Source: an uncultured Clostridia bacterium
GTDB taxonomy: Bacteria; Acidobacteriota; Blastocatellia; UBA7656
Length of the DNA stretch: 64,000 nt
Direction: 5' to 3'
Assembly (NCBI GenBank): GCA_964615905.1
Contig: CAZTUB010000005.1
Location: forward strand, 56,123-120,122
Part shown: piece by piece, positions 1,316-50,270 of the stretch
Layout of the letters: each line of letters opens with the position of its first letter
How positions within the stretch are numbered: the stretch's first letter is position 1
Notes under the pieces: model-generated
The model's database searches: none
The model's input: the letters and a program-made list of their open reading frames with translations, nothing else
Told to the model about the DNA's origin: nothing
Translations under genes and position numbers: made by a program

Positions 1316-2557
1316 ATGTCTGAGACCCATACGAAACATTTCCGCACAGCCAAATCAGAAACGATTCGCAGCATAAACTCAACCCTGATACTAAACGTCA
1401 TACGCAACAACCAGCCGATTTCCAGGGCCGAAGTCGCGCGCCGCACCGGGTTACAGCGCAGCACGATCTCGGAGATTTTCAGCGACCTGCTGAAAAAAGA
1501 GCTGCTGGTCGAGATAGGCGAAGGTATGTCGTCGGGCGGGCGCAAGCCTACGATGATGCGGCTGAACGCCGAGCGATTCTGCGTCTTCGGCATATCGATT
1601 GGCGTGCAGGACATTGACCTGGCCATGAGCGACTTGAACGGCCACATAATCTACAAAGAGGCCTTCCCGGTTCGCGAGACGCCCGAAGAGTTGTTCAAGG
1701 TGGTCGCTGAGAAGATCAACAGGATCATACACGCGCGCCGCTCCGAGCGGCTGCACTATGAAGGGATAGGCGTCAGCGTGCGCGGAATGGTCGATTACTC
1801 GACGGGAGAGATATTGTTTGCGCCCAATATGGGCTGGCGGCACGTCCGCGTGGAGGACTACTTGAAGGTAGGCGTGCCTGTGCCGATCTACGTCGATAAC
1901 GACGCGAACGCGGCGGCGCTTGCCGAAGCCTGGTACGACCCGAACGATGAGTCATCGCCCAACCTTGTGCTCGTGCTGGTAACGGACGGCGTTGGCGTCG
2001 GCATGGTGATAGACGGCGAAATCTACAGGGGCGCGAACGGGACAGCGGGCGAGTTCGGTCATATGGTCATCGTAGCGGGCGGCGAGAAATGCCGTTGCGG
2101 AAATTCCGGTTGCTGGGAGGTCTACGCTTCCGACGACGCGACGCTTGCGCGCTATGTCGCGCCCGGCTCAAAGGGCGAGGGTCGCGCGGGCTTACACGCC
2201 GCGCCGGGTCGCGCTTTCAGCATCACCGTCCCAGAGTTGATAGCGCAAGCGCGCAACGGAGACGCGAGCGCCCGCCATACACTCACCGAAGCCGCGCGGT
2301 ACATCGGCATAGGGATCGGCAACATCTTATCCGGCCTCAACCCTTACGAGCTGGTCATAAGCGGCCAGATTATAGAGGGCTGGGAATTGATCGAGCCTAC
2401 TATGAAAGCGGCCATCGCTCGCAGCCCGCAGCACGACCTGACACGCACAACCGTCCGCCGCTCTAACCTCGGAAGCGACGGCGCGCTGATGGGAGCGGTA
2501 GCACTGGCAATCTCGCGCCGGTTCTCCTTCAAGCGCGTGGGCCACGCCGTAGCGTAG
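1316..2557 (+). CDS. ROK family transcriptional regulator (NagC/Mlc-like: N-terminal wHTH plus ROK sugar-kinase-like domain with a Cys zinc motif)
   Basis: N-terminal HTH (ISRAEVARRTGLQRSTISEIFSDLL). ROK glycine-rich motifs (DNDANAAALAE, GVGVGMVIDGE). Zinc motif CRCGNSGCWE. ATG at 1316. Confidence 0.85.
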   Translation: MSETHTKHFRTAKSETIRSINSTLILNVIRNNQPISRAEVARRTGLQRSTISEIFSDLLKKELLVEIGEGMSSGGRKPTMMRLNAERFCVFGISIGVQDIDLAMSDLNGHIIYKEAFPVRETPEELFKVVAEKINRIIHARRSERLHYEGIGVSVRGMVDYSTGEILFAPNMGWRHVRVEDYLKVGVPVPIYVDNDANAAALAEAWYDPNDESSPNLVLVLVTDGVGVGMVIDGEIYRGANGTAGEFGHMVIVAGGEKCRCGNSGCWEVYASDDATLARYVAPGSKGEGRAGLHAAPGRAFSITVPELIAQARNGDASARHTLTEAARYIGIGIGNILSGLNPYELVISGQIIEGWELIEPTMKAAIARSPQHDLTRTTVRRSNLGSDGALMGAVALAISRRFSFKRVGHAVA

Positions 2558-2561
2558 AAAA

Positions 2562-2661
2562 GGCGTAAACCGTGAACCGTAAACCGTGACAAGTCAGAGG
2601 TGAGTAGCAAGCTGCGCATCCCGCCTCATCTTGTCACGGTTTACGGTTCACGGTTTACGCC
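2562..2661. repeat. Long hairpin element, copy A: perfect 32-bp inverted arms made of tandem heptamers (GGCGTAAACCGTGAACCGTAAACCGTGACAAG / reverse complement) around a 36-nt loop, between convergent genes
   Basis: Left arm 2562-2593 and right arm 2630-2661 are exact reverse complements. Further partial heptads (CGGTTCACGCC) follow at 2664-2675. Confidence 0.85.
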
Positions 2662-2676
2662 TTCCGGTTCACGCCT

Positions 2677-4515
2677 TCATTTTGCGCCTTTGCCAGCCGT
2701 GAGCGTGACCGCGCGGTCTACGCCCGACACGCTGAATGTTTCGACCGCGCCGCCCGGCCAGCGGACTTCGAGCTTGTCTATCTTTGTCGCGGCTCCGAGC
2801 CCGAAGTGGAGCCGCGTGTCGTTTTGCGAAGAGTAGCTCGCCCCGCTTATGACGTCCATGCGCTGGCGGAGCTTGCCCGTGGTCACAAAGACGGTCGCGC
2901 CCGTGGCGTCTTTCGGGTCTTTCTTCGACACGTCGCCGATGAGTCGCACCGATAGCCAGTGACCCGGCTGCTTTGTCGCGTTGCGCAGGACGGTGGGCGG
3001 CGAGTCTATGTTGTTAAATACAACGTCCGGTCTGCCGTCTCCGTCGATGTCGCCTACGGCAAGCCCCCGCGCCTGGATCGCAATCGCGAGGCCGCTTGAA
3101 GGTGCGGCCGCGACGCGCTCGAACTTCCCGGTGGAGAGGTTTCTGAACAAGACCGGCTGCTGCGCGTAGCTCGTCCCCCACTGCTGCTGATCGACTCCGG
3201 GATAGACGTGGCCGTTGGCTATCAAAACGTCTTTCCACCCGTCGTTGTCATAGTCGATAAAGCTCGTTCCCCAGCCGAGGAAAGGGTATGTCGCCTCGCC
3301 GTGCCCCGCTTGAAAGGTCACGTCGACAAAGTTGCCGTCGCCGTCGTTTTGATAAAGAGTGTTTGAATCGTCAGAGAAATTTGTGACATAAAAATCGACG
3401 CGCCCGTCGTTGTCATAATCGCCTACGGCTAAACCCATGCCCGCCTGCTCGCGCCCGTTTTCATTCAATGCAAGACCTGACGGGTAGCCTAGCTCTTCAA
3501 ACGTGCCGTCGCCTTTGTTTATGTAAAGCTGCTTCGGGGTCGAGTCGTTCACGACGACTATGTCGAGCAGGTCGTCATCGTTTGCGCGGACAAAAGCCGA
3601 TGCGAAGCCGTAGTATTTCTGCGGGTCTGTGACTCCCGCCTTCTGGCTCACGTCTTCAAAGGTGCCGTCGGCGCGCTGGCGATAAAGCGTGTCGCCTTCG
3701 CCTTTCAAACCGCGCGGCCCGCATAAGACGGGGATGCCTCGGAACTGGCAGAAGTTCATCCCTATCCCGCCTTGCCGCGCCGCCTCGGAGGGGTTGGGCG
3801 GGAGGTTGTCTATATCGAATTCGATGTAGCCGGGCACGAAAAGATCGAGTCGCCCGTCGCTGTCATAATCGCCAAAGCTCGCGCCTGTTGACCACCCCTT
3901 TCGCGCAACTCCAAGCTTTTCGGCCACGTCCGTAAAAGTGCCGTTGCCGTTGTTACGGTAAAGACGCGACACGCCGAAGTTGCCTATGAAGAGGTCTGCG
4001 TTCCCATCATTATCATAATCGCCGACGGCCACGCCCATGCCCCATCGCTCGTTGGCTACACCGGCTTTGTCGGTCACCTCTTCAAACTGCCAGTTGCCCA
4101 GATTGCGATAGAGCGCGGCGCGCGGAGCCTTCTCTTTGCCCCGAAGCGCGCCTATCGTCGAGCCGTTTAGAAGGTAGATGTCGGGCCGCCCGTCGTTATC
4201 ATAATCGAACAGGGCAACGCCGCTGCCGGGCGCTTCGAGTATGTAGTCTTTTGCCGCGCCGCCCGACTTGTGCACAAAGCGAGCCATAGGAGTCCGCGCG
4301 GTAACGTCTTCAAAGACCAGCGGGGCGCGGGGGTCTGTGATGCCGACCGTTCGGCGCGAGGTGTATGCTCGCGCCGCGCCCGTCGATACACCGCCCTGGC
4401 TCTCCTGCGCGGGCTGCTTTTGCTGCGCGGGTTGCCTTTGCTCTTGCGCCATCAGCAGGGCAGGCGCGAGCGCGAGCGCCAGACCTGCCGCAAATTTTAG
4501 AGAGTAACGGTTCAT
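2677..4515 (-). CDS. Secreted FG-GAP repeat / ASPIC-UnbV (CRTAC1-like) protein
   Basis: Signal peptide from the ATG at 4515 (MNRYSLKFAAGLALALAPALLMA). Repeated DYDNDG-type FG-GAP/VCBS calcium-binding motifs. C-terminal ASPIC/UnbV-like region (ASYSSQNDTRLHFGLG). Confidence 0.8.
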   Translation of the reverse strand: MNRYSLKFAAGLALALAPALLMAQEQRQPAQQKQPAQESQGGVSTGAARAYTSRRTVGITDPRAPLVFEDVTARTPMARFVHKSGGAAKDYILEAPGSGVALFDYDNDGRPDIYLLNGSTIGALRGKEKAPRAALYRNLGNWQFEEVTDKAGVANERWGMGVAVGDYDNDGNADLFIGNFGVSRLYRNNGNGTFTDVAEKLGVARKGWSTGASFGDYDSDGRLDLFVPGYIEFDIDNLPPNPSEAARQGGIGMNFCQFRGIPVLCGPRGLKGEGDTLYRQRADGTFEDVSQKAGVTDPQKYYGFASAFVRANDDDLLDIVVVNDSTPKQLYINKGDGTFEELGYPSGLALNENGREQAGMGLAVGDYDNDGRVDFYVTNFSDDSNTLYQNDGDGNFVDVTFQAGHGEATYPFLGWGTSFIDYDNDGWKDVLIANGHVYPGVDQQQWGTSYAQQPVLFRNLSTGKFERVAAAPSSGLAIAIQARGLAVGDIDGDGRPDVVFNNIDSPPTVLRNATKQPGHWLSVRLIGDVSKKDPKDATGATVFVTTGKLRQRMDVISGASYSSQNDTRLHFGLGAATKIDKLEVRWPGGAVETFSVSGVDRAVTLTAGKGAK

Positions 4516-4533
4516 GTGAGTTTGCTTTCCCAC

Positions 4534-6650: not shown

Positions 6651-9600
6651 ATGACGAACCACTGTAAGACCCCAATGCTTAAGGCATGGGCCAGCGTTGC
6701 ATTACTGCTCGTCGTCTTCGTGCTTCCGTCCACCGCTCAAACTACAAAAGGCACCATCGTAGGGACAGTCACAGACGCAAGCGGCGCTGTGGTTGCGGGG
6801 GCGACCGTTACGGTGAAGAACGTAAACACCGGAGCGACGCGCGACGTTACGACGAGCGATGACGGCACATACACAGTGCCGTTGCTCGACATAGGCTATT
6901 ACACGGTGACGGCCGCTGCTCCTGGTTTCCAGACCGTCACGCGCGAAAACATAAAACTCGACATAGCAGACCGTCTCCCTGTCGATATTGAGCTGTCGGC
7001 TTCGGGCTCTGCCGAGGCGGTGACGGTGACTGCCGAAGCGCCGATAATTCAAAGCGAATCGAGCGAGCGCGGCAGCGTCATCTCCGGCCGCGAGGTGACG
7101 GAGCTTCCGCTCAACGGTCGAAACTTCACGCAACTGGCCACACTAACGCCGGGCGTCTCTCGCGTGACGATAGGCACGCTGTCGGACGCTCGCGCGAACA
7201 ACAACGGCGACCCGAACGCGGGCGGCCAGGGTCCGGGCGGCGGCGACTCTAGAGGCTCGACCGAATCGGCCCGCTTTGCCCGTTCGGGCGGCGCGGTGCT
7301 TTCGGCCAACGGCCAGCGCCCGACCAATAACAACTTCTCTGTTGATGGCGTTGACAACAACGAGCCTCAATTCGGCACCATCGGCGTATTCGTTAACCCC
7401 GATGCCATCGCCGAATTCAAGGTCACAACCAGCATACCGCCTGCCGAAATCGGGCGTGCCGCGGGCGCGGTCGTCAACACCTCTTTCAAGTCGGGGACCA
7501 ACGAGTTCCACGGCTCGCTCTACTATTTCGGGCAGAACTCTGCGCTGAATGCTTATCACCCGATCCTTTTGCGCAACCGCAACGATGCGATAATTCGCGG
7601 CGACCTTGTGCTCCCGGTGAAGGCCACGCAGCAGACGCACGAGTTCGGCGGGACGATTGGCGGCCCGATCATAAAGGACCGGACCTTCTTCTTCTTCGAT
7701 TACCTGGGCGGTCGCAATAACCTGCCGACCCCGCTTGGATCGACGGTGCCTTCGGCGGCGGTCCGCATGGGCGACTTCTCCGAATACACGAATGCGGTCC
7801 TCGACCCTCGCACGGGTCAGCCTTTCCCCGGAAACCAGATTCCCGAAAACAGACTGAGCCCGGCTGCGCGCAGGTTCTTCGACCTGTTCCCGCTGCCGAC
7901 GGTTGCGAGAAACAACCCCGGCCAGTTTGACAACAACTTTTTCGCGACCCGCGAGGTGCGCGAAGTCATAGACAACTTTGACATCAAGATCGACCATCGT
8001 TTGACGGCGAACAACGCGTTGTCGGGTCGCTACAGCTACCAGGACAACTCAAACGTTCGGGGCTCGTTCTTCGAGCAGGTCCCGGCCGGGTTCGGCGCAG
8101 GCAATGAAGTCGGCAACACCCGTCAGATCGTTATCACCGACACGCATTCGTTCAGCCCGACCGTACTAAACGACTTCCGCTTCGGGTTTACCAAGATCGA
8201 CATCGGTATTCTCAACTGCGGCGTCGGCGGCGCGTGCGGGATCAGCGAATCGTTCTCGGCTGACCTCGGCATCCCCAATGCCAACGACGGGTCGTTCGAG
8301 CAGTCGGGCTCGATACTCGTCGGCGGGTTCGGCAACGGGTTTGTCGAGTTCGCAGGCGACGGCGGTCCGTTCATCGTAAACAGCAAGAACCCGTATTTCG
8401 CAGACACGTTGACCGTCATCAAGGGCAGCCATACGTGGAAGATAGGCGGCGAAGTTCGCCTCCGCTATCTTGAGACGATTGACGGCGGTCGCACGGGCGG
8501 GTTGAAAGGCAACCTCTCTTACGCAGACAACGGCCCGGCGACGGGCGCGAACCCGAACTGCCCGCCCGGATCGGGCACTCCTGCCGCGTGTTTCGTCGAT
8601 GCCAACGGCATAGCGTTTGGCGGGTCGGGCAACGCGCTGGCGAACATTCTGCTCGCAGACGTCGCCGCGCTCCAGACCTTCCGTGGCAGCGTGCCCGGCG
8701 GCGCGTTCAACCTGCGCTCGCAAGAGTGGGGCCTGTTTATTCAGGACGACTGGAAGGTCTCTGACAGGCTGACGCTCAACCTCGGCCTGCGGTACGACCT
8801 CTTCCCGTCATCGACAGAGGCCGATGGCCGCCTGGGCAACTTCAGCATAGACGAGCGCCGCGTCATCCTTGCCGACGGCAGCGGCGACCGTTTGATTGAG
8901 ACGGACAAGAACAACTTCGGCCCGCGCATAGGCTTTGCTTACGCCGTAGGCCCTGAGAAGAAGATGGTCGTGCGCGGCGGGTACGGTCTGCTCTACACGC
9001 TCGACGCGACCGACCGGCCGCCGCTTGTCCAGAATCCGCCGTTTACAAACAGCGTAGGGTTCAACAACGCGTTTGACGCTTCGACGCCGCGCAGCGTCTT
9101 CAACCTCGACACGGGGCCGCCGGACGTTCCTGTTGTCGATCCCAACAACATCCCTGTGGCAGTCCGCGTCTTTTACGCCGACCCCGAACAGATCATCGCA
9201 TCGGTTCACCAGTTCAACCTCGGTATCCAGTATCAGTTCGCAAACGACTGGGCGTTCGATATCGGGTACGTGGGCAACCGGTCCAAGCACCTGCTTGCGA
9301 CACGCGACATAGGCGGCGGCGGCACCGCGCAAGCGCGCAACGCCGCGGGGCAGTTCATCGCCGCGTCCGCTTACGAGAACCGCGCTTCGGCTCAGTACGA
9401 CTCGTTGCAGATGCAGTTGCAGAAGCGCCTGTCGCACTACGTTCAGGGTCAGATCTCTTATACCTGGAGCCACAACATAGACGACTCGACAGGTGTGTTC
9501 CAGGGCATAGGCGAGGGCCGCGGGTCTGTGGGCGGGCCGCAAGACCCGTTCTGCCTGAGGTGCGAGCGAGGCAACTCTGCGCTCGATGTTCGTCACCTGA

Positions 9601-10127
9601 TGACCGCCAACGCGATTATCGATCTTCCGTTCGGAAGAGGGCGACGGTTCTTTAACTCGAACGCGACGGCCGATAAGATCGTGGGCGGCTTCCAGCTGAA
9701 CTTTATCGTGAGCGCAAGGTCGGGCTATCCGTTCACGGTGGTCGACGGCAATAACGGCAACCGCCGCGCAACACTGATTGGCGACCCGTTCGCGAATGCT
9801 CCTCCTGGCCGTTTTCTCGACCCGGCTGCATTCACAGGGGGCGACATTCAGGTGACGAATGAGGCGGGCACGGTGATCGCTTTCGGCTCCCTCGGTCGCA
9901 ACACGTTCCGGGGACCGGGATTTGTTCGCACGGACATGTCGGTCTTCAAGAACACTGGCATTACTGAGAGAATCAAGATGCAGTTCGGCATGGAGTTCTT
10001 CAACCTGTTCAACCAGGCTCACTTCACCGTGCCGAATAACAACTTCAGGGACGTGGGCGCATTCGGTCGGTTCGACGCCGCGCTCCCCGGACGCGTCATT
10101 CAATATCGGTTGAAGATTCTCTTCTAA
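6651..10127 (+). CDS. TonB-dependent receptor with N-terminal carboxypeptidase-regulatory-like domain (acidobacterial type outer-membrane beta-barrel)
   Basis: RBS AGGTGAGG 9 nt upstream. Signal peptide, then CarbopepD_reg-like segment (TIVGTVTDASGAVVAGATVTVKNVNTGATRDVTTSDDGTYTV). Plug/TonB-box region. 1158 aa with terminal aromatic residue (...YRLKILF). Confidence 0.85.
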   Translation: MTNHCKTPMLKAWASVALLLVVFVLPSTAQTTKGTIVGTVTDASGAVVAGATVTVKNVNTGATRDVTTSDDGTYTVPLLDIGYYTVTAAAPGFQTVTRENIKLDIADRLPVDIELSASGSAEAVTVTAEAPIIQSESSERGSVISGREVTELPLNGRNFTQLATLTPGVSRVTIGTLSDARANNNGDPNAGGQGPGGGDSRGSTESARFARSGGAVLSANGQRPTNNNFSVDGVDNNEPQFGTIGVFVNPDAIAEFKVTTSIPPAEIGRAAGAVVNTSFKSGTNEFHGSLYYFGQNSALNAYHPILLRNRNDAIIRGDLVLPVKATQQTHEFGGTIGGPIIKDRTFFFFDYLGGRNNLPTPLGSTVPSAAVRMGDFSEYTNAVLDPRTGQPFPGNQIPENRLSPAARRFFDLFPLPTVARNNPGQFDNNFFATREVREVIDNFDIKIDHRLTANNALSGRYSYQDNSNVRGSFFEQVPAGFGAGNEVGNTRQIVITDTHSFSPTVLNDFRFGFTKIDIGILNCGVGGACGISESFSADLGIPNANDGSFEQSGSILVGGFGNGFVEFAGDGGPFIVNSKNPYFADTLTVIKGSHTWKIGGEVRLRYLETIDGGRTGGLKGNLSYADNGPATGANPNCPPGSGTPAACFVDANGIAFGGSGNALANILLADVAALQTFRGSVPGGAFNLRSQEWGLFIQDDWKVSDRLTLNLGLRYDLFPSSTEADGRLGNFSIDERRVILADGSGDRLIETDKNNFGPRIGFAYAVGPEKKMVVRGGYGLLYTLDATDRPPLVQNPPFTNSVGFNNAFDASTPRSVFNLDTGPPDVPVVDPNNIPVAVRVFYADPEQIIASVHQFNLGIQYQFANDWAFDIGYVGNRSKHLLATRDIGGGGTAQARNAAGQFIAASAYENRASAQYDSLQMQLQKRLSHYVQGQISYTWSHNIDDSTGVFQGIGEGRGSVGGPQDPFCLRCERGNSALDVRHLMTANAIIDLPFGRGRRFFNSNATADKIVGGFQLNFIVSARSGYPFTVVDGNNGNRRATLIGDPFANAPPGRFLDPAAFTGGDIQVTNEAGTVIAFGSLGRNTFRGPGFVRTDMSVFKNTGITERIKMQFGMEFFNLFNQAHFTVPNNNFRDVGAFGRFDAALPGRVIQYRLKILF

Positions 10128-10195
10128 GCTGCGAAGTTTTAGCCATAAGGGCCTGAAGCGATAGCAATCGGGCTATCGCTTCAAGCTCCTGTTTA

Positions 10196-10231
10196 GCGAC
10201 CGGGGCGGGTGCGCGACCGGTCGCTTTTTTG
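10196..10231 (+). terminator. Rho-independent terminator after the TonB-dependent receptor gene
   Basis: GC-rich hairpin including the 12-bp perfect palindrome GCGACCGGTCGC (10213-10224), followed by TTTTTT (10225-10230). A second hairpin AGCGATAGC..GCTATCGCT lies at 10157-10180. Confidence 0.6.
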
Positions 10232-21374: not shown

Positions 21375-21408
21375 CACGAACGCGATGAGAGGAATGCGGA
21401 CCGTAGAT

Positions 21409-21503
21409 CGTGAACCGTGAACCGTAAACCGTGACAAGAGGGAGCAGATGCCTGGTCTGCCGCTCCTCTCTGACTTGTCACGGTTTACGGTTCACGGTTC
21501 ACG
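21409..21503. repeat. Long hairpin element, copy B: perfect 30-bp inverted arms (CGTGAACCGTGAACCGTAAACCGTGACAAG / reverse complement) with a 35-nt loop, between the VWA gene stop and the transporter gene start
   Basis: Arms 21409-21438 and 21474-21503 are exact reverse complements. Loop 5' AGGGAGCAG and 3' CTGCCGCTCCTCT can extend the stem imperfectly. Confidence 0.85.
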
Positions 21504-21521
21504 AAAGAAGGGGTGATTTAG

Positions 21522-22970
21522 ATGGAAAAGCCGCGTTTGAGCTTCTGGCAGATCTGGAATATGAGCTTCGGCTTTCTGGGTATACAGTTCGGCTGGGGGT
21601 TACAGCTTGCCAACATGAGCGGCATATACACGTACCTGGGCGCAAGGCCGGAAGAAGTGCCGATACTGTGGCTGGCTGGCCCCGTCACAGGGTTGCTTGT
21701 CCAGCCGATAGTTGGCTCGATGAGTGACCGCACGTGGAACCGTCTGGGTCGCCGCCGCCCCTATTTCCTGGTCGGGGCAATTTTCGCAAGCGTCGCGCTC
21801 TTTTTCATGCCCAACTCGTCCGCGCTGTGGATGGCCGCCGGTATGCTGTGGATACTCGACGCCAGCATAAACGTCAGCATGGAGCCGTTCCGCGCATTCG
21901 TCGCCGATAAGCTCAACACTGACCAGCGCACCGCGGGGTTTGTGATGCAGAGCTTCTTCATCGGCGTGGGCGCTACGCTTGCGAACATACTCCCGTATAT
22001 CTTCAGAGAGTACGGCGTAGACGCCGGAACGTCCACGACTGCAAACGCCATCCCGCCGAGCGTGACCTACTCATTCAAGATCGGCGCGGTGGCATTTTTG
22101 GCGGCCGTCTTATGGACGGTCTTCACAACCAAAGAGTACCCGCCTGAGAACATCGAGGAGTTCGAGCGTCACCGCCGAGAGCACAAGGGGATAGCCGCGG
22201 GGTTTGCCGAGATAACATCGGCAATGCGCGATATGCCGCGAACCATGAAGCAGCTGGCCGTCGTTCAGTTCTTCACCTGGCTCGGTCTGTTTTGCATGTG
22301 GATGTTTTTCGGGCTTACCACTTCATACCACATCTTCGGCGCGGCAAATGATAATGACCCGCTCTTTAAAGACGGGCAGGCGTGGGGAGGCATCGCCTTC
22401 GCCGTCTATTCGATCACCTGCTTCGTCGTAGCCTTCGCGCTGCCAAAGCTTGCAAAGGCGACCAGCCGCAAGACCGTGCACGCGGGCGCGCTCATCTGTG
22501 GCGGCATAGGTCTGCTGTCGGTCTACTTCATTCACGACAAGAACCTCTTGCTGCTGACGATGGTCGGCGTCGGCATAGCCTGGGCATCTATCCTGTCGAT
22601 GCCCTACGCGATACTTGCCGGCTCGCTCCCTGCGGCCCGCATGGGCGTCTACATGGGGATATTCAACTTCTTCATCGTCATCCCTGAGATAATCGCGTCA
22701 TTCAGTTTCGGCCCCGTCATACGCGCGCTCTTTGGGCCGGATAATCCATCGGCCCCGCTTTACGTGGTGATGGCGGGAGGCGCGTTCATGGTGATCGCCG
22801 CTTTATGCGTGGGGCTTGTCAGTGACGTGGCCGACCAGCCCGTCCCTGTGGGCGCCGTCTTGCGCGCAGACGAGTACGAGCCACTGATTGTTCCCGAATC
22901 GGCGCATCCTGTCCCAAGCACAGGCATGATCGACGAGCCGTCGAAGGGCGGTCGTCGCGAAAGCCAGTAA
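21522..22970 (+). CDS. GPH/SLC45-like sugar:cation symporter (MFS superfamily), probable maltose/sucrose-type transporter
   Basis: 12 predicted TM segments. SLC45/GPH signature [13 protein letters not shown] after TM2. RBS AAGGGG. Confidence 0.85.
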
Positions 22971-24432: not shown

Positions 24433-24475
24433 TCAAGAAGAAACGATGATACGAAATTTGATTGGAGATTTGACG

Positions 24476-25567
24476 ATGCAGAACCGAGGAAAGCTGATGG
24501 CCGTTTTGCTTGCGGTGGCGCTACTCGCGGCCGGGTGTGTGACTACGCCGCCCGGTCAACAACCGGCCAACCGCGAGCCGAAGTCGGGCAAGATTCGTAT
24601 AGGGTTTTCGATGGACACTCTGAAAGAAGAGCGGTGGCAAAAAGACCGCGACCTGTTTATGGCGCGCGCCGCAGAGCTTGGAGCGGAAGTCCTTTTACAA
24701 GTGGCCAACGGCGACGACGCGGCGCAGACGCAGCAGGCTGAAAATCTGCTCACTCAAAAAGTGGATGTGCTGGTCGTGGTCCCGCATAACGCCGAGGTGG
24801 CGGCTTCGATAGTCGATTCGGCCAACCGCCAGGGCGTTCCCGTCATCAGCTATGACCGTTTGATACGGAGAGCGGATGTCGATCTCTATATCTCGTTCGA
24901 CAACGAAAAGGTGGGCGAGTTGCAGGCGAGTTACTTGCTGGAGCGAGCGCCGAGGGGGAACTACGTGCTGATACAGGGCGCGCCCACAGACAACAACGCG
25001 CGACAGTTTCACGATGGGCAGATGAGAGTTCTGAAGCCCGCGATTGATCGCGGCGACGTGAAGGTGGTCCTCGACCAGCCCGCCCGCGAGTGGCTGGCCA
25101 GCGAGGCGTTGAAGCATACCGAAAACGCGCTGACTCAGGCCAACAACGACGTCGCGGCAATCGTCGCTTCAAACGACGGGGTGGCGGGCGGCGTTATACA
25201 GGCGCTCGAAGAGCAGAAGCTCGCGGGCCGCGTGCTCGTGTCGGGCCAGGACGCGGACCTCGCGGCGTTGCAGCGCATAGTTCAGGGGTCGCAGACGATG
25301 ACCGTCTACAAGCCGATTGACCCGCTTGCTCGCCGCGCAGCCGAAGCGGCCGTGTTGCTTGCTCGCGGCGAAAAGCCCGCAACCACCGCGACCGTAAACA
25401 ATGGCAAGCGAGACGTGCCGTCGATCTTGCTCGAACCCGTAGTGGTCGATAAATCGAACATCGCCGCGACCGTTGTAAAAGACGGCTTCCTCAGGCTCGA
25501 AGATATTTATAAGAACGTGCCGCGTGACCAGTGGCCCGCTCAACCGACGGCAATCGGCGGCAATTGA
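24476..25567 (+). CDS. xylF: D-xylose/monosaccharide ABC transporter substrate-binding protein (XylF family, CUT2), lipoprotein-type signal
   Basis: Extensive collinear similarity to E. coli XylF (RWQKDRD, YISFDNEKVGELQA, QGAPTDNNA, VASNDG.AGG.IQAL, VSGQDADLA, GSQTMTVYKPI, DVPS.LL.P..V.K.NI...V.KDGF). Start at ATG 24476 after GGAG. LLAAGC lipobox. Confidence 0.8.
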   Translation: MQNRGKLMAVLLAVALLAAGCVTTPPGQQPANREPKSGKIRIGFSMDTLKEERWQKDRDLFMARAAELGAEVLLQVANGDDAAQTQQAENLLTQKVDVLVVVPHNAEVAASIVDSANRQGVPVISYDRLIRRADVDLYISFDNEKVGELQASYLLERAPRGNYVLIQGAPTDNNARQFHDGQMRVLKPAIDRGDVKVVLDQPAREWLASEALKHTENALTQANNDVAAIVASNDGVAGGVIQALEEQKLAGRVLVSGQDADLAALQRIVQGSQTMTVYKPIDPLARRAAEAAVLLARGEKPATTATVNNGKRDVPSILLEPVVVDKSNIAATVVKDGFLRLEDIYKNVPRDQWPAQPTAIGGN

Positions 25568-25570
25568 GGA

Positions 25571-25664
25571 GGTGACAAGTGACAAGTGACGAGTGACAAG
25601 AGGGAGGAACTTTCCGACCGATCCTTTTTCTCTATCTTGTCACTCGTCACTTGTCACTTGTCAC
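25571..25664. repeat. Long hairpin element, variant copy D: 29/30-bp inverted arms of tandem GTGACAA heptamers (GGTGACAAGTGACAAGTGACGAGTGACAAG / reverse complement) with a 35-nt loop, between xylF and xylG
   Basis: Arms 25571-25600 and 25636-25664. Shares the GTGACAAG...CTTGTCAC core and a purine-rich/pyrimidine-rich loop layout with copies A-C. Confidence 0.8.
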
Positions 25665-25673: not shown

Positions 25674-27212
25674 ATGGCGACAGGCACACCGCTTCTTGAG
25701 ATGCGCGACATTACAAAGTCTTTCCCAGGCGTGCGCGCTCTCGACGGGGTGACGTTCGATCTTTACGGGGGAGAGGTGCACGCGCTTGTCGGGGAAAACG
25801 GCGCGGGCAAATCTACTTTGATGAAGATATTGGGCGGCGTCTACCCTTACACAGACTACGGCGGGGAGCTGAAGATCGAAGGCCGTGAGCGCCGCTTCTC
25901 AGGCGTTCGCGATGCGGAGAGTGCGGGCGTCGCGGTTATCTTTCAAGAGCTGTCGCTTGTGAAGGATATGACGGTCGGTGAGAACATCTTTCTCGGTCGA
26001 GAGCCGCGCCGCTTCGGCGTGATCCGCTGGGGCGAGCTTTACGCTAAAGCCCAGCGCCTGCTCGACGACCTGCACCTGAATATTGACCTTCGCACGCCTG
26101 TCCGCAACCTCGGCATAGGCCAGCAGCAGCTTGTAGAGATAGCCAAAGCCCTTGCCTCCGAAGACGCGCGCATACTGGTGCTTGACGAGCCGACCGCCGC
26201 GCTCACGGACGCCGAGGTGGCGACGCTCTACTCGATCATAGACAAGCTGCGCGCTCGCAAAGTGGGAATGGTCTATATCTCGCACAAGCTCGAAGAGGTC
26301 TTTCATCTGGCCGACCGCATAACCGTTTTGCGCGACGGGCGCACAGTGGGCACGCACCCGAAGGACTCGATAAACGAGCAGCGCGTCATTGAATTGATGG
26401 TCGGGCGCGAAGTCAGCCAGCTTTTTCCCGTCCCTGAGCACGAGCCCGGCGAGACCGTCTTCGAGGCTCAAAATATCACCGTCTTCGATCCGGCGGTTGA
26501 TGGAAAGAAGCTCGTCGACAACGTCAGCTTTTCAGTGCGCCGGGGCGAAGTGCTCGGCATTGCGGGGCTGATGGGAGCAGGCCGCAGCGAATTGCTGATG
26601 GCGATATTCGGCGCGCACGCGGGGCGGCACTCGGGCGAGGTCCGTATCAACGGGAAGCCCGCGCGGCTCGCGAGCCCCGCGGCCGCTATCAAGCGAGGCG
26701 TCGGGTTCGTCACCGAAGACCGTAAACGTTTCGGCCTTGTGCTCGACCAGACGATCCTGAACAATATGACGCTTGCGAGCCTGGGCCGCGTGTCGGGCCG
26801 CTTCGTCACAGACGTAGATAGAGAGGCGTCCGCAGCAGAGCGCGAGATGCGCGCGCTTCGCATCAAAGCACCCACGGTCTTTACGGTCGCAGGGACGCTG
26901 TCGGGCGGGAATCAGCAAAAAGTCGTGCTCGCGAAATGGCTTATGACAGAGCCGGTCGTGCTCTTTTTAGACGAGCCGACGCGCGGGATAGACATAGGCG
27001 CAAAGCAGGAGATATACGCGCAGATCAACGCGCTTGCGAAAGCGGGCCTCGCTATAGTGCTCGTATCGTCCGAGCTGCCGGAAGTGCTCGGCCTGTCCGA
27101 CCGCGTGATCGTTCTTCACGAAGGGCGCGAGACGGGCCGGTTCACGCGCGCCGAAGCGACCCCCGAAGACGTGATGGCCTGCGCCACGGGCCATATGAAA
27201 CGGACAGCCTGA
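25674..27212 (+). CDS. xylG: Sugar ABC transporter ATP-binding protein, duplicated ABC domains (XylG family)
   Basis: Two Walker A motifs (GENGAGKST, GLMGAGRSE) and two signature motifs (LGIGQQQLVEIAKAL, LSGGNQQKVVLAKWL). High collinear similarity to E. coli XylG. 512 aa. Confidence 0.85.
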   Translation: MATGTPLLEMRDITKSFPGVRALDGVTFDLYGGEVHALVGENGAGKSTLMKILGGVYPYTDYGGELKIEGRERRFSGVRDAESAGVAVIFQELSLVKDMTVGENIFLGREPRRFGVIRWGELYAKAQRLLDDLHLNIDLRTPVRNLGIGQQQLVEIAKALASEDARILVLDEPTAALTDAEVATLYSIIDKLRARKVGMVYISHKLEEVFHLADRITVLRDGRTVGTHPKDSINEQRVIELMVGREVSQLFPVPEHEPGETVFEAQNITVFDPAVDGKKLVDNVSFSVRRGEVLGIAGLMGAGRSELLMAIFGAHAGRHSGEVRINGKPARLASPAAAIKRGVGFVTEDRKRFGLVLDQTILNNMTLASLGRVSGRFVTDVDREASAAEREMRALRIKAPTVFTVAGTLSGGNQQKVVLAKWLMTEPVVLFLDEPTRGIDIGAKQEIYAQINALAKAGLAIVLVSSELPEVLGLSDRVIVLHEGRETGRFTRAEATPEDVMACATGHMKRTA

Positions 27213-48719: not shown

Positions 48720-48819
48720 AAAATATTTTATAGTCCGAAAGTTCTGCGGATACCTGTGTTGTACGAGCCAGTTGGCCAGGATGTTTAGGAAAAGTTCTGG
48801 CTAAACGCGAACCGAGAGC

Positions 48820-48912
48820 CGTGAACCGTGAACCGTAAACCGTGACAAGCCAGAGTAGAGCGGTAGACCGGGCATCTCTCCTCTTGTCACGGTTTACGGT
48901 TCACGGTTCACG
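48820..48912. repeat. Long hairpin element, copy C: perfect 30-bp inverted arms (same arm sequence as copy B) with a 33-nt loop; right arm overlaps the 3' end of the CapK-like CDS
   Basis: Arms 48820-48849 and 48883-48912 are exact reverse complements and identical to the arms of copy B. Confidence 0.85.
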
Positions 48913-50270
48913 ATCTTCGTAATCTCTTGTATGACGAGGCGGAACTTGCCGCTTGCTACGAGCGGTATCTCTTCGGGAAAGCTCAGCGTGATCTCCATGG
49001 TGTCGCCCATCTTTTCAGATAGTGCGGCACGTATACGGTGGCTATCCCGGTCCGTGTAGCCGGACCTTCGTCTGATCCGAAGCTCAACCTTGCCTTTTTC
49101 ACGCTGATAAAACTGTATCTGGTGTACGTTGTCAAAGATGTCCGAGTGCATATTCAATGCCGTCACCGAGATCAGGTTATCGAGCCTGCCCACAAGCACC
49201 TCTTGGTGCCAGCGGCCGCGCGTCTCTCTTAGCAATCTATAATTGCGCCCGCAGGCGCAGGACGACGGGCCGACGACTGCCCAATCGTCCGTGCGGTAGC
49301 GAATGAGCGGCATGGCAAAGTTGTCGAGCGACGTGCCGACAAGCTCGCCCATCTCGCCTTCTTCGGTCGCGTCCGCGCCTTCGGCGGTGAGCACTTCGAC
49401 CACGCCGTACTCAGGGAAGATGTGATAGTTATTGCTCGCCTCGCATTCGCCCGCGAGGATGGTGGTCTCGCTGTGGCCGTACCAGGAAAATAGCCGCGCG
49501 CCGTAGAAAGATTCTATAAACTCGCGCTGGCCGGGATAGAGGTTCTCGGATGACGCGAGTATGGCTTTGAACCGGGGCGGCTCCTGACCGAGCGCTTGCA
49601 GGTGTCGCGCAAAGTCTATGACCGCCGACGGGTACGAGTGCAGAAACGGCAGCCGTTTCTCTCGCATGACGCGAGCGTAAGCGGCCACGTTTTCAGGGGT
49701 CATATGAAAGTTGGAGAAGACATAGGATCGCTCCGAAACCTGATACTCCCAGTGGCGGCGGTTCTTGACCGCCCAGCCCCTCAGCGCAGCCCGCAGGTCT
49801 CGCGGGCGAAACCCCACGCGCGCCCACTGCGTGAACATGAAAGCTCGCTCGCGCCCGCCCGCGTGCTTGAGGTTGTAGACTCCGAGAGGCGTGCCCATCG
49901 TGCCGCCGGTCGTGAAGTAGAGCCTGTCGCGCGGCTTTATATTCTCGGCAAGAAGATCGCGCAGGTTTTCGCGCACGGTCTCTTTGTCCAGAAGCGGCAG
50001 TACGCGCAGGTCTGCGACCGTTCGCACGCCTTCGGGGTCGAACCCGCGCTCTCGAAAGAGCCTGCGATAATAAGGCACATTCTTCGCAGCGTGACATAAC
50101 ATGCGGCGGAGCTTTTTCAGCTGATAATCCGCGAGCCTGTCTTCGCTCCAATGCTCGGACTGTTTTAGCAGGCTTAGTGTGGGCGCATACTGCGGCCCGT
50201 AGCATATAGGATCGGGCAGGCGGTAGTAGACCGGCTTTAATAGGGATTTAATCGAGTCTTTCGCGCCCAT
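48894..50270 (-). CDS. Adenylate-forming enzyme of the phenylacetate-CoA ligase / coenzyme F390 synthetase (CapK-like) family
   Basis: Start at ATG 50270 (MGAKDSIK...). PaaK/CapK-like blocks (LRRMLCHAAKNVPYYRRLF, YFTTGGTMGTPLG, ILASSENLYPGQREFIE). The last five codons (VNREP) and the stop lie within the repeat arm. Confidence 0.75.
   Translation of the reverse strand: MGAKDSIKSLLKPVYYRLPDPICYGPQYAPTLSLLKQSEHWSEDRLADYQLKKLRRMLCHAAKNVPYYRRLFRERGFDPEGVRTVADLRVLPLLDKETVRENLRDLLAENIKPRDRLYFTTGGTMGTPLGVYNLKHAGGRERAFMFTQWARVGFRPRDLRAALRGWAVKNRRHWEYQVSERSYVFSNFHMTPENVAAYARVMREKRLPFLHSYPSAVIDFARHLQALGQEPPRFKAILASSENLYPGQREFIESFYGARLFSWYGHSETTILAGECEASNNYHIFPEYGVVEVLTAEGADATEEGEMGELVGTSLDNFAMPLIRYRTDDWAVVGPSSCACGRNYRLLRETRGRWHQEVLVGRLDNLISVTALNMHSDIFDNVHQIQFYQREKGKVELRIRRRSGYTDRDSHRIRAALSEKMGDTMEITLSFPEEIPLVASGKFRLVIQEITKIVNREP

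What the first reader, a model, noticed from the sequence alone, without database searches (positions are those of the whole stretch)
2562..2661. Four long perfect hairpins built from tandem heptamers, all placed just after CDS ends
Four copies lie in 64 kb: 2562-2661 (32-bp perfect arms), 21409-21503 and 48820-48912 (identical 30-bp arms), and the variant 25571-25664. The arms are tandem 7-mers (CGTGAAC, CGTAAAC, GTGACAA) that end in a shared GTGACAAG...CTTGTCAC core. The 33-36 nt loops are purine-rich on the 5' side and pyrimidine-rich on the 3' side, so the stems probably extend beyond 40 bp. Every copy is intergenic and starts 5-100 nt after a stop codon. Copy A lies between convergent genes, and copies B and D lie between co-directional genes. 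Such perfect arm conservation with variable loops is typical of REP/BIME/MITE-like dispersed elements that act as terminators, mRNA 3' stabilisers or protein-binding sites. No family of this kind is known to me from this lineage. Heptad periodicity could also indicate a repeat-binding protein.
Basis: seen in the sequence. Interest (0 to 1): 0.7.

Follow-up and report, generated by a model that had tools for sequence, protein, structure and literature searches.

The report
Heptamer-built palindromes hugging stop codons
The four hairpins are real copies of an apparently undescribed family of perfect DNA palindromes, built from tandem 7-base units rich in stop codons, that sit directly on gene ends in one family of soil Acidobacteria (Pyrinomonadaceae); they resemble REP elements, but how they spread and what they do remain unproven.

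Summary
Four perfect hairpins (30-34 bp arms, 33-36 nt centres, RNA-fold z about -10 to -12) lie at 2560-2663, 21408-21504, 25572-25664 and 48820-48912, and all eight arms are period-7 arrays. The motif recurs in at least 60 loci from Pyrinomonadaceae/Blastocatellia MAGs. It is one flavour of a superfamily with about 39 heptamer types.

In 535 kb I catalogued 117 heptad hairpins.
- None lies inside a gene.
- They start a median of 1 nt from a stop codon. In about 40% of assessable cases the stop lies inside the arm.
- The 5' arm carries stops in all three frames in 68 of 117, against 8 for the 3' arm and 3 for shuffles.
- Arms covary: 17 of 29 pairs change on both sides.

Orthologous sites stay occupied (10 of 11), but 6 of those 10 hold a different heptamer. 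Sites B and C are empty in a syntenic relative.

Most copies lack a U-tract. Many lie 2-30 nt before the next start codon, and copy C sits between xylF and xylG. Stem mismatches show no sense-strand G.U bias (21 vs 22). I found no target-site duplication or transposase, and the only RAYT-like gene seen is flanked by a different repeat.

Best reading: REP-like dispersed palindromes kept perfect at the DNA level, giving stable 3'/intercistronic RNA hairpins. This is a new variant of a known kind.

The parts
2560..2663 (.). Copy A. 5' arm 2560-2593 (AAGG-CGTAAAC-CGTGAAC-CGTAAAC-CGTGACAAG), centre 2594-2629, 3' arm 2630-2663. It lies between convergent genes.
   Evidence: 34-bp perfect inverted repeat. 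Fold -81 / -84 kcal/mol, z -12. Period 7. On the - strand the stem is followed by UUUUC.
2664..2677 (.). Extra partial 3'-arm unit of copy A (CCGGTTCACGCCTT), two more heptads with no partner.
   Evidence: Inverted-repeat pair I6. TRF period-14 array at 2634-2679.
21408..21504 (+). Copy B. Arms 21408-21438 / 21474-21504, centre 21439-21473. It lies 33 nt after the stop of gene 19170-21374 and 17 nt before the ATG of the MFS transporter gene.
   Evidence: The centre is about 80% identical to the reverse complement of copy D's centre. The syntenic relative L152 has only a 31-nt spacer here.
25572..25664 (+). Copy C, the GTGACAA/GTGACGA flavour. Arms 25572-25601 / 25635-25664. It lies 4 nt after the xylF-like stop and 9 nt before the xylG-like ATG.
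   Evidence: Gene identities from Pfam and source names. The site is empty (30-nt spacer) in L152.
48820..48912 (-). Copy D. Arms 48820-48849 / 48883-48912, identical to the arms of B. The stop codon and last five codons (VNREP*) of the upstream - strand gene lie inside arm 48883-48912.
48807..48819 (.). Two degenerate heptads (CGCGAAC CGAGAGC) that extend copy D's array beyond the paired stem.
   Evidence: TRF array 48809-48845, 5.3 copies.
48894..50270 (-). CapK_C / phenylacetate-CoA-ligase-like gene. Its C-terminal tail is replaced by heptad-encoded residues, and its stop codon is supplied by the element.
   Evidence: Alignment with 11 homologues: the window and its 90% relative end in VNREP*/VNRQP*, while more distant homologues carry a different tail that runs 8-16 residues further in the alignment.
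24446..25567 (+). D-xylose ABC transporter substrate-binding protein gene (xylF-like), immediately upstream of copy C.
   Evidence: Pfam Peripla_BP_4. Homologues are named D-xylose SBP by their sources.
25674..27212 (+). ABC transporter ATPase gene (xylG-like), immediately downstream of copy C.
   Evidence: Pfam ABC_tran x2.
21522..22970 (+). MFS maltose/maltooligosaccharide transporter gene downstream of copy B. Its orthologues in three other genomes are preceded by heptad hairpins of three other flavours.
1316..2557 (+). ROK-family regulator/kinase gene that ends 2 nt before copy A.
2677..4533 (-). FG-GAP/ASPIC repeat protein gene that ends 13 nt from copy A.

Best explanation
The four hairpins belong to a lineage-specific superfamily of dispersed DNA palindromes in Pyrinomonadaceae (Acidobacteriota, Blastocatellia). 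I call them heptad-repeat hairpins.

Anatomy. The consensus of the window's main flavour is (A)AAGCC-[GTRAACC]n-GTGACAAG-purine run ... pyrimidine run-CTTGTCAC-[GGTTYAC]n-GGCTT(T).

Shown:
- They occupy the first nucleotides after, or overlapping, a stop codon, one per spacer that contains a gene 3' end.
- The 5' arm on either strand carries TGA/TAA/TAG in every unit. Because 7 is not a multiple of 3, three units close all three frames.
- The arms are kept almost perfectly complementary while their sequence changes.
- Copies are gained, lost and replaced by other flavours at the same site.

Inferred:
- The 7-nt period comes from replication slippage, which is known to favour heptamers.
- The arms are kept perfect by a DNA-level copying process, either intra-palindrome template switching or ectopic conversion between copies. 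RNA-level selection on the sense strand is less likely, because G.U and A.C mismatches are equally frequent.
- The three-frame stops make residence on a gene end nearly harmless, because at most about 6 extra codons are added.
- When transcribed, each copy forms a 30-45 bp perfect RNA duplex at the 3' end of a cistron. That duplex should act as a barrier to 3' exonucleases and as a substrate for RNase III, and, where AAAGCC/GGCTTT ends are intact, as a weak bidirectional terminator. This would be REP-like punctuation of operons, as at xylF-xylG.
- The agent that disperses copies is unknown.
For: 60 come from Acidobacteriota MAGs, mostly labelled Pyrinomonadaceae or Blastocatellia, and their arms are built of heptads.

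Superfamily: there are 117 heptad hairpins in 535 kb, with about 39 unit classes. Among strongly periodic arms the period is 7 in 58 hairpins, 8 in 2, and never 5, 6 or 9-12.

Position:
- 0 of 117 hairpins lie inside genes.
- The distance from stop codon to hairpin has a median of 1 nt (10-90%: -19 to +14). Hairpins not selected by the query give the same result.
- In long tandem spacers 12 of 14 lie at the stop-codon end (KS p = 3e-8).
- The apparent 'divergent' cases mostly have a coding-like ORF that ends at the hairpin.

Stop codons: all three frames are closed in the 5' arm of 68 of 117 hairpins, against 8 for the 3' arm and 3.3 for shuffles. In the 48 hairpins of other flavours there are 122 stops on the 5'-arm strand and 41 on the other. 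The CapK-like gene's tail VNREP* is heptad-encoded and replaces the ancestral tail.

Pairing maintained:
- 94% of cells are paired, and 17 of 29 pairs change on both sides. 0 of 500 shuffles reach this.
- The orthologous copy in an 87%-identical genome differs at 3 substitutions and 1 single-base indel within the stem, all mirrored in the other arm.

Turnover: 10 of 11 orthologous sites are occupied, 6 by another flavour. Four flavours occur upstream of one MFS gene. Sites B and C are empty in syntenic L152. B and D have identical arms and about 80% identical centres.

DNA-level signature: stem mismatches are G.U 21 against A.C 22 on the sense strand.

Intercistronic placement: many hairpins end 2-30 nt before the next start codon, and C lies between xylF and xylG. 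E. coli also has a stem-loop directly after xylF.

Outer ends AAAGCC/GGCTTT.
Against: - No transcript data exist, so every statement about function is inference.
- No mobilising enzyme, target-site duplication or parent element was found. Only 8-21 kb pieces of other genomes could be examined.
- Occupancy of 10 of 11 orthologous sites, and anchoring within a few nt of the stop even in 100-500 nt spacers, are hard to explain by tolerance alone. They point to targeting or to positive function.
- Composite L-R-R forms are always oriented with the upstream gene (7 of 7), and RNAfold counts slightly more G.U pairs on the sense strand (154 vs 118). Both hint at some transcription-linked asymmetry that a pure DNA-level model does not predict.
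- Gene calls in the loci are my own crude ORF/GC3 caller.
- About half of the catalogue was ascertained through the query motif.
Confidence: 0.5

Rival explanations
1. They are dedicated factor-independent, bidirectional transcription terminators. Their long stems were elaborated in place by heptamer slippage. They are not mobile elements.
For: - They sit directly after stop codons, one per spacer that has a gene 3' end, including convergent pairs.
- The family consensus ends in AAAGCC...GGCTTT, an A-tract/U-tract pair.
- Runs of 4 or more T are four times the intergenic background (21% vs 5%).
- Copy A on the - strand is followed by UUUUC.
- Occupancy of orthologous sites is conserved.
Against: - About 80% of copies lack a run of 4 or more T, and B, C and D have none.
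- The genome has ordinary GC-stem-plus-U-tract terminators elsewhere: 10195-10235, 45365-45445 and 39544-39576.
- Many copies end 2-30 nt before the next start codon, and C sits inside a xylFGH-type transporter operon. A strong terminator there would silence the downstream genes.
- Evolution in place cannot explain the same flavour at dozens of loci in many genomes, nor the identical arms and similar centres of B and D.
Confidence: 0.15
2. They are classical non-autonomous transposable elements (MITEs or REPINs), moved in trans by a dedicated transposase such as a RAYT/IS200-type Y1 enzyme that recognises the hairpin in single-stranded DNA.
For: - Multi-copy, multi-family palindromes with presence/absence differences between relatives.
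- Compensated changes, as reported for REPINs (PMC3116915).
- No sense-strand RNA signature.
- Y1_Tnp genes exist in this bacterial family (L160).
- REP ends are known to supply stop codons to flanking ORFs (PMC3733652).
Against: - The only Y1_Tnp gene seen is flanked by a different, ordinary REP (GGCGGGCAWTGCCCGCC-TCTAAA), not by heptad arrays.
- None of the 39 window proteins has a transposase or integrase domain.
- No target-site duplication flanks the four copies.
- No arm pair encloses a gene in 535 kb.
- A single arm is not itself a palindrome, unlike a REP.
- About 39 flavours would need many cognate enzymes, or one enzyme that reads shape rather than sequence.
Confidence: 0.15
3. The heptad arrays are binding sites for a protein that reads 7-nt repeats on DNA or RNA, for example a nucleoid-associated, regulatory or RNA-binding protein. 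The palindrome provides two arrays in mirror symmetry.
For: - Strict 7-nt periodicity.
- A shared xGT(G/A)Axx core in many flavours.
- The CGTRAAC-GTGACAAG sequence is conserved across many MAGs.
- Three units equal two turns of B-DNA (my arithmetic).
- Protein binding was proposed for TAACTGA heptamer repeats in Beggiatoaceae (PMC4679880).
Against: - About 39 different unit sequences, and free replacement of one by another at the same site, argue against sequence-specific recognition.
- The arrays almost never occur unpaired: 96 of 120 overlap a catalogued hairpin, and the rest are mostly arms of wider hairpins. The paired stem, not the array, seems to be what is kept.
- There is no candidate protein.
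Confidence: 0.1
4. Integron attC sites, chance inverted repeats or assembly artefacts.
For: - attC sites are also 57-141 bp palindromes that follow a cassette's stop codon and have 7-bp cores ending in AAC and starting with GTT (my knowledge of integrons).
- One short-read contig breaks inside copies B and C.
Against: - The stems are perfect, without extrahelical bases.
- GTTCACG and GTTTACG do not fit the GTTRRRY core.
- The flanking genes are housekeeping operons on both strands, and the window has no integrase.
- Chance is excluded by the shuffles.
- The same site carries a hairpin in three independent assemblies of a relative, and the elements occur in both long-read and short-read MAGs.
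Confidence: 0.02

Closest known systems
REP / BIME elements and REPINs (Enterobacteria, Pseudomonas and others)
   Same: - High-copy extragenic palindromes concentrated at gene 3' ends and between cistrons.
- Their ends often supply the stop codon of the flanking ORF (PMC3733652).
- Hairpin-preserving compensated changes (PMC3116915).
- The classical role is as a 3' exonuclease barrier between a binding-protein gene and the membrane-component genes of ABC transporter operons (malE-malF, hisJ-hisQ; my knowledge). Copy C sits in the equivalent xylF-xylG position.
   Different: - The arms are tandem heptamers, not a unique 20-40 nt imperfect palindrome.
- The stems are 30-45 bp and essentially perfect.
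- There is no GTAG/CGTC tag.
- No link to a RAYT gene was seen.
- There are dozens of unit flavours.
- There is a systematic three-frame stop content in the 5' arm.
Cyanobacterial STRR heptanucleotide repeats and other long heptamer simple-sequence repeats (Nostoc/Calothrix, Xanthomonas GGGAATC, Burkholderia)
   Same: - Intergenic tandem 7-nt units occur in several flavours per genome.
- Heptamers are the most over-represented long repeat unit in many bacteria, which has been attributed to polymerase slippage (Mrazek 2007, as cited in PMC4679880 and PMC4692102).
- Length and sequence vary between close relatives at the same site (PMC4692102).
- Nostoc has TTGTCAG arrays, whose complement CTGACAA is one base from GTGACAA (PMC2408588).
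   Different: - Those repeats are mostly direct arrays, and inverted pairs are the exception.
- Here nearly every array has a mirror partner that forms a perfect hairpin anchored on a stop codon.
- The phylum is different.
TAACTGA direct repeats of marine Beggiatoaceae, Cyanobacteria and Bacteroidetes (PMC4679880)
   Same: A heptamer that contains stop codons, so arrays close all three frames and can overlap a coding end by only a few codons. They are intergenic, and their distribution suggests spread between genomes.
   Different: - They are direct repeats with no predicted structure.
- They lie just upstream of start codons and overlap the ribosome-binding site, rather than on stop codons.
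- There is a single unit sequence.
Intrinsic (Rho-independent) terminators, including bidirectional ones
   Same: A stem-loop directly downstream of the stop codon. The family consensus has an A-tract and a U-tract at the stem base.
   Different: The stems are 3-5 times longer. The U-tract is absent in most copies. Many copies lie inside operons a few nt before the next start codon.
Intercistronic RNase III processing hairpins (phage T7 early mRNA, rRNA operon stems)
   Same: Long double-stranded RNA segments between cistrons that would be cleaved and leave a 3' hairpin on the upstream message. This is a functional analogy from my own knowledge and was not tested.
   Different: T7 sites contain internal loops that direct single cuts, and they are not repeated palindromic DNA families.

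Membership tests
REP / REPIN | High-copy, extragenic, palindromic repeat | tested here: met
   At least 60 Acidobacteriota loci carry the core. 0 of 117 hairpins lie inside genes.
REP / REPIN | The unit is a 20-40 nt imperfect palindrome; a REPIN is two such units inverted | tested here: not met
   A single arm (CGTGAACCGTGAACCGTAAACCGTGACAAG) has no internal self-complementarity. It is a tandem heptad array.
REP / REPIN | Conserved GTAG or CGTC tetranucleotide at one end (PMC3733652) | tested here: not met
   The outer ends are AAGGCG (A), TCGTG (B), GTGAC (C) and CGTG (D). The family consensus is AAAGCC.
REP / REPIN | Cognate RAYT (Y1 transposase) gene flanked by the same repeats | tested here: inconclusive
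   The window has no Y1_Tnp. The one Y1_Tnp seen in a carrier MAG (L160) is flanked by a different REP. Whole genomes could not be scanned.
MITE | Target-site duplication flanking the element | tested here: not met
   No direct repeat of 3 nt or more flanks any of the four copies. The filled-versus-empty comparison with L152 is too diverged to define junctions.
MITE | Terminal inverted repeats shared with an autonomous IS | tested here: inconclusive
   No arm pair encloses a coding segment in 535 kb, but complete genomes were not available.
Intrinsic terminator | GC-rich stem followed immediately by a U-tract | tested here: not met
   A run of 4 or more T follows about 21% of stems in the sense direction, with no sense/antisense difference. 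B, C and D have none, and A has one on the - strand only.
Intrinsic terminator | Located at the end of a transcription unit | tested here: inconclusive
   A is between convergent genes. C is inside a xylF-xylG-xylH-type cluster. Many family members end 2-30 nt before the next start codon. There are no transcript data.
Integron attC | Imperfect palindrome with RYYYAAC / GTTRRRY cores and extrahelical bases, in a one-directional cassette array next to intI | tested here: not met
   The stems are perfect. GTTCACG and GTTTACG do not fit GTTRRRY. The genes lie on both strands, and there is no integrase domain in the window.
Heptamer long simple-sequence repeats (STRR-like) | Tandem 7-nt units, intergenic, several flavours per genome | tested here: met
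   TRF period 7 in all arms. 58 of 60 strongly periodic arms (excluding one arm of N bases) have period 7. There are about 39 unit classes.
Heptamer long simple-sequence repeats (STRR-like) | Direct (head-to-tail) arrays without obligatory mirror partner | tested here: not met
   96 of 120 arrays overlap a catalogued hairpin, and most of the rest are arms of wider or composite hairpins.
Any Rfam family | Match to a curated covariance model | tested here: not met
   There are 0 gathering-level hits in the window and in four carrier loci.

The most novel reading that the evidence does not exclude
Heptad-repeat hairpins are a new class of self-propagating genome 'punctuation'. They are palindromic minisatellites that home to translation stop sites by an unidentified mechanism, either a shape-reading enzyme or ectopic template-switch conversion between hairpins. 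Each carries a built-in full stop for both strands: stop codons in all three frames, followed by a very stable hairpin. Their cargo-free architecture would have been shaped by selection to be insertable on any gene end, and the host would use them to set cistron boundaries in mRNA.
Probability: 0.2. Interest if true: 0.8.

Novelty: new variant of a known kind. Interest (0 to 1): 0.6.

Why it matters
Acidobacteria are among the most abundant soil bacteria, yet their genome architecture and gene-expression signals are almost unstudied.

In the carrier genomes sampled these elements occur about once per 5-10 kb. They break short-read assemblies, overlap and rewrite the last codons of genes, and place 30-45 bp perfect duplexes between cistrons. 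They will therefore affect annotation (gene ends, false ORFs), binning and assembly, and probably mRNA processing and stability.

They also offer a clean natural system for three open questions:
- how perfect palindromes are maintained and replaced in bacterial chromosomes;
- why heptamers dominate bacterial long repeats;
- whether REP-like elements are parasites, tools or both.

The three-frame-stop asymmetry of the arms is a simple, testable design rule that, as far as I could find, has not been reported for palindromic repeats.

Tried and rejected
1. Rfam: no family matches the window or four carrier loci.
2. Seeding of arrays from the gene's own stop codon. This was suggested by L021/L049 site 1, where TAG-type and TGA-type arrays start at TAG and TGA stops. 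It is rejected as a general rule: when the stop lies upstream of the arm it is in heptad register in 6 of 45 cases, against 6.4 expected.
3. Sense-strand RNA selection. MFE sense vs antisense is not significant (43 vs 34, p = 0.16). Stem mismatches are G.U 21 vs A.C 22.
4. Canonical terminator: U-tracts are mostly absent.
5. Phage carriage: two scans of viral contigs gave only 4 chance-like hits without the family architecture.
6. Transposase in the window: none among 39 proteins.
7. Arms flanking a coding segment (parent IS): none.
8. RAYT link: the Y1_Tnp gene in L160 is flanked by another repeat.
9. Insertion junctions and target-site duplications from filled vs empty sites: the only empty-site relative (L152, 78% protein identity) is too diverged.
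10. The metagenome scan with the amylase gave only relatives of 72% identity or less from diverse Acidobacteria. It showed that long hairpins of many kinds follow that gene's stop codon, but gave no close orthologue of sites B and C.
11. Literature: nothing on heptamer hairpins in Acidobacteria. Elhai's paper on small dispersed repeats in Nostoc is not in the library.
12. The 'divergent spacer' cases (13 of 110) were re-examined, and most are errors of my ORF caller.
Full report
OBSERVATION.
- A: arms 2560-2593 / 2630-2663, 34 bp perfect.
- B: arms 21408-21438 / 21474-21504, 31 bp perfect.
- C: arms 25572-25601 / 25635-25664, 30 bp perfect (38 bp at 92%).
- D: arms 48820-48849 / 48883-48912, 30 bp perfect, identical to the arms of B.

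TRF reports period-7 arrays in all eight arms. The arm patterns occur 12 times each, against 0.5 and 0.0 expected from shuffles. Either strand folds at -59 to -84 kcal/mol, 10-13 sd below shuffles. No other period-7 hairpin occurs in the window.

A starts 2 nt after one stop codon and ends 13 nt before the other. B starts 33 nt after its stop and C 4 nt after. The stop codon of the gene upstream of D lies inside the arm.

WHERE IT COMES FROM AND HOW OFTEN IT RECURS. Window proteins have their best named relatives in Pyrinomonadaceae/Blastocatellia MAGs.

60 loci come from Acidobacteriota MAGs, mostly labelled Pyrinomonadaceae or Blastocatellia, and one comes from a Tepidisphaeraceae bin with the same architecture. 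Nine hits in other phyla have only the 10-12 bp core and no heptads. That is the order expected by chance for a 20-base pattern in 596 Gb (my arithmetic).

A short-read contig of the window's own organism begins and ends inside copies B and C, as expected for a repeat. Three independent assemblies of a relative carry a copy at site D. The elements are therefore not assembly artefacts.

A SUPERFAMILY, NOT ONE FAMILY. I wrote a hairpin finder and ran it over the window plus 60 carrier loci (535 kb). It returned 117 hairpins with heptad-periodic arms, about 57 of which were not selected by my query.

Besides CGTGAAC/CGTAAAC/CGTCAAC + GTGACAAG and GTGACAA/GTGACGA, there are AGTGATG, GAATGAT, AGTAGTC/AGTAGCC, GGCAGTA, TTAGCTG, GGTGAAT/GGTAAAT, CTGAGTG, AAGGCAA and others. 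This gives about 39 rotation classes, most of them seen in several loci and several MAGs.

Among strongly periodic arms, 58 have period 7, two have period 8, and none has period 5, 6 or 9-12. Heptad arrays almost never occur without a mirror partner: 96 of 120 overlap a catalogued hairpin, and most of the rest are arms of wider or composite hairpins.

For the window's main flavour, the outer ends have the consensus AAAGCC...GGCTTT. The centre begins purine-rich and ends pyrimidine-rich (72% and 74%), so the stem continues inward. Centre length is bimodal, around 15-21 nt and 40-50 nt. The longer centres often contain decayed or extra arms.

Three unbiased 21-kb loci from other Blastocatellia have no heptad hairpins. 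The load is therefore lineage-specific.

POSITION. Gene positions in the loci come from my own rough ORF/GC3 gene caller.
- None of the 117 hairpins lies inside a gene, although 86% of the DNA is coding.
- 80 lie between co-directional genes, 17 between convergent genes, 13 between apparently divergent genes, and 7 at locus edges.
- Most of the 13 'divergent' cases have a coding-like ORF that ends at the hairpin, so they are calling errors.
- The tandem:convergent ratio equals the ratio of such spacers. This means one hairpin per spacer that contains a gene 3' end.
- The distance from stop codon to first paired base has a median of 1 nt (10-90%: -19 to +14). Non-query flavours give the same distribution.
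- This is not just a matter of small spacers. Where 60 nt or more of slack exists, 12 of 14 hairpins sit at the stop-codon end (KS p = 3e-8).
- On the other side, many hairpins end 2-30 nt before the next start codon.

Loci with pipeline gene calls agree. The hairpins there start -4 to +17 nt from a stop.

STOP CODONS IN THE 5' ARM. Nearly all abundant units contain TGA, TAA or TAG when read on the 5' arm. Because the element is a palindrome, the same holds on the other strand.

Three or more units close all three frames. This is the case in 68 of 117 5' arms, against 8 of 117 3' arms and 3.3 expected from composition-matched shuffles. In the 48 hairpins of flavours unrelated to my query there are 122 stops on the 5'-arm strand and 41 on the 3'-arm strand. 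TGG, one transition away from a stop, occurs 17 times.

In 34 of 79 assessable cases the gene's own stop is one of the array's stops. Copy D is an example. The CapK_C-type gene ends ...IVNREP*, encoded by ATC-GTG-AAC-CGT-GAA-CCG-TAA. Its 90% relative ends VNRQP* in the same kind of array. More distant homologues share a different tail that runs 8-16 residues further in the alignment. The element has therefore overwritten the gene's end and supplies its stop.

I tested whether arrays are seeded from the native stop codon. When the stop lies upstream of the arm it is not in heptad register (6 of 45 vs 6.4 expected). That idea is rejected as a general rule.

EVOLUTION. Over 54 copies of the main flavour, 94% of cells pair, 17 of 29 pairs show changes on both sides (74 cells), and 0 of 500 shuffles reach this. 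One caveat applies: copies were pre-filtered for at least 12 of 14 pairs next to the core.

The variable fourth base of CGT[G/A/C]AAC matches its partner in 45 of 54 and 43 of 54 copies in the two inner units, where independence predicts about half.

A genome 87% identical over 12.3 kb has a copy at site D. Its 27-bp stem differs from the window's by three substitutions and a one-base deletion, every one mirrored in the other arm. Its centre is unalignable, although the flanking intergenic DNA aligns well.

Across six pairs of orthologous loci (74-91% identity), 10 of 11 heptad-hairpin sites are occupied in both genomes. Only 4 hold the same flavour, and 6 hold a different one. Upstream of the MFS maltose-transporter gene, four genomes carry four flavours. 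The syntenic MAG GCA_035634255.1 has bare spacers of 31 and 30 nt at sites B and C.

B and D share identical arms, about 80% identical centres in the same orientation relative to their upstream genes, and the 5' flank AGAT. Copies are therefore duplicated to new places, lost or never gained at some sites, and replaced at others.

TESTS OF FUNCTION.

Terminator. A run of 4 or more T follows about 21% of stems (background 5%), with no sense/antisense difference. Of the window copies only A on the - strand has one. The genome does use ordinary U-tract terminators at 10195-10235, 45365-45445 and 39544-39576. With a start codon a few nt downstream there is no room for a promoter, so many copies must be transcribed through. 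C lies between a D-xylose binding-protein gene and its ABC ATPase gene. This is the classical position of REP elements in transporter operons (my knowledge). E. coli also has a stem-loop directly after xylF.

RNA-level selection. Sense and antisense folding energies do not differ significantly (43 vs 34, p = 0.16), with a weak G.U excess in predicted structures (154 vs 118). Within the catalogued stems, G.U mismatches on the sense strand (21) equal A.C mismatches (22). This parity argues that the pairing is maintained at the DNA level or on both strands, not by selection on the sense transcript alone.

One polar feature remains unexplained. Composite elements with a second 3' arm read L-R-R in the direction of the upstream gene in all seven cases where that gene is unambiguous.

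TESTS OF MOBILITY.
- No target-site duplication flanks the four copies.
- None of the 39 window proteins has a transposase or integrase domain.
- No arm pair encloses a coding segment in 535 kb.
- There is no presence in viral contigs.
- A Y1_Tnp (RAYT-type) gene occurs in one carrier MAG. It is flanked by an ordinary REP, GGCGGGCAWTGCCCGCC-TCTAAA, not by heptads.

EXPLANATION.

Shown: this is a dispersed, lineage-specific superfamily of perfect palindromes made of tandem heptamers. They are anchored on stop codons, carry three-frame stops in the 5' arm on both strands, covary, and turn over rapidly at conserved sites.

Inferred:
- The 7-nt period reflects the slippage preference described for bacterial long repeats (Mrazek 2007, as cited in PMC4679880 and PMC4692102).
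- The arms stay perfect through intra-palindrome template switching or ectopic conversion between copies. This would also explain flavour replacement without target-site duplications, and the mirrored indel.
- The stop-rich 5' arm is what lets an element sit on, or overwrite, a gene end at the cost of a few codons.
- The transcripts carry 30-45 bp duplexes that should block 3' exonucleases and be cut by RNase III. They would terminate transcription weakly where the AAAGCC/GGCTTT ends survive.

I put 0.5 on this composite. The rivals are dedicated terminators (0.15), classical transposase-driven MITE/REPIN (0.15), heptad-reading protein sites (0.1), and attC, chance or artefact (0.02 or less).

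COMPARISON AND NOVELTY. The closest functional analogue is REP/BIME/REPIN. The closest structural analogues are cyanobacterial STRR and other heptamer repeats. The closest analogue for stop-bearing heptamers is the TAACTGA repeat of Beggiatoaceae. Each differs in defining features (see the membership table). I found no description of such elements in Acidobacteria. I rate this a new variant of a known kind.

CAVEATS.
- Gene calls in the loci are approximate.
- Half of the catalogue was reached through the query motif. The key statistics were repeated on the rest.
- The genome scan was truncated at 70 rows.
- All the genomes are MAGs.
- No expression data were available.

Noticed in passing
window 21439-21515 and 48800-48882 (- strand): The centres of copies B and D contain a Shine-Dalgarno-like run (AGGGAG / AGGAGAG) followed by ATG. 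This opens a 22-24 codon ORF (MPGLPL[L/Y]S[D/G]LSRFTVHGSR...) that reads through the stop-free 3' arm. In B it ends at TGA, 6 nt before the MFS start codon. Two of the four codon differences between B and D are synonymous. Copy C has no such ATG. This may be coincidence.
   Followed up: no
L160 6501-7113: A RAYT-type Y1_Tnp gene (191 aa) in Pyrinomonadaceae MAG GCA_041749275.1 is flanked by inverted copies of an ordinary REP (TTTAGAGGCGGGCAATGCCCGCC ... GGCGGGCATTGCCCGCCTCTAAA). A classical REP-RAYT system therefore coexists with the heptad hairpins.
   Followed up: partly
L009 7679-7772, L014 7687-7780, L032 4292-4388; L032 3432, L037 2720, L041 7040, L160 2782 and 10987: Two further dispersed palindrome families without heptad periodicity occur in the same MAGs. 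One has 42-44 bp perfect arms (AACAGAACCGCGAGCGGTAGCGAGCGGGTGCGGGTGAC...). The other has arms of about 30 bp (GGTCAGAACCGCCYGCGGTAGCGGGYGG...). Both contain GGTAGCG.
   Followed up: no
L007 38, L024 4976, L034 7189, L036 2598, L058 1945, L067 5197, L043 405/4113/6684: A period-8 palindrome family (TTAACCACAGAGGCACAGAGGCAC / CACGGAGG units) is shared by Pyrinomonadaceae MAGs and the contig binned as Tepidisphaeraceae. That contig (L043) also has a CGTGAAC-GTGACAAG hairpin, so it may be mis-binned or horizontally related. Unlike heptad hairpins, the two members of this family that lie in orthologous locus pairs (L034 7189, L036 2598) had no partner at the orthologous site.
   Followed up: partly
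L072-L151 (amylase homologue loci): In many distant Acidobacteria a long hairpin of some family starts within 7-30 nt of the end of the amylase homologue match. Examples are L072 GATTGCG heptads, L077, L078/L093/L151 AGCGGGGGCAAGCCCCC, L096, L113 and L127. Stop-adjacent long palindromes therefore seem to be a phylum-wide habit, with different repeat families.
   Followed up: partly
window 39544-39576: A 13-bp GC-rich hairpin (AGGCGGGATGTC...GACATCCCGCCT, followed by TTGG) nearly fills the spacer between the stop of the FHA-trypsin gene (39600) and the start of a Ser/Thr kinase gene (39543). It has the same stop-hairpin-start packing as the heptad elements, but is an ordinary stem.
   Followed up: no
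window 33058-41318: A dense signalling cluster on the - strand: three Ser/Thr protein kinase genes, a PP2C phosphatase gene, an unknown gene and an FHA-trypsin-like protease gene.
   Followed up: no
L152 9495-9851 (also L153, L154): In the syntenic relative, a 118-aa 23S_rRNA_IVP / bAvd-like gene is inserted between the amylase and xylF genes. In the window these two genes are only 13 nt apart.
   Followed up: no
window 45348-46195 and 41319-41618: Two unusually long stretches without a called gene (about 850 nt and 300 nt). The first begins with a 32-bp imperfect hairpin plus T-run (45365-45445). There are no Rfam hits.
   Followed up: no
window 6651-25567: Copies B and C lie inside a carbohydrate-uptake region. 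It contains a TonB-dependent-type outer-membrane barrel, two TPR proteins, three alpha-amylase-family genes (two of them cyclomaltodextrinase-type), an SDR, an MFS maltose transporter and xylFGH-like ABC transporter genes. Gene order around the MFS gene differs between relatives (L152, L160, L161, L163).
   Followed up: partly
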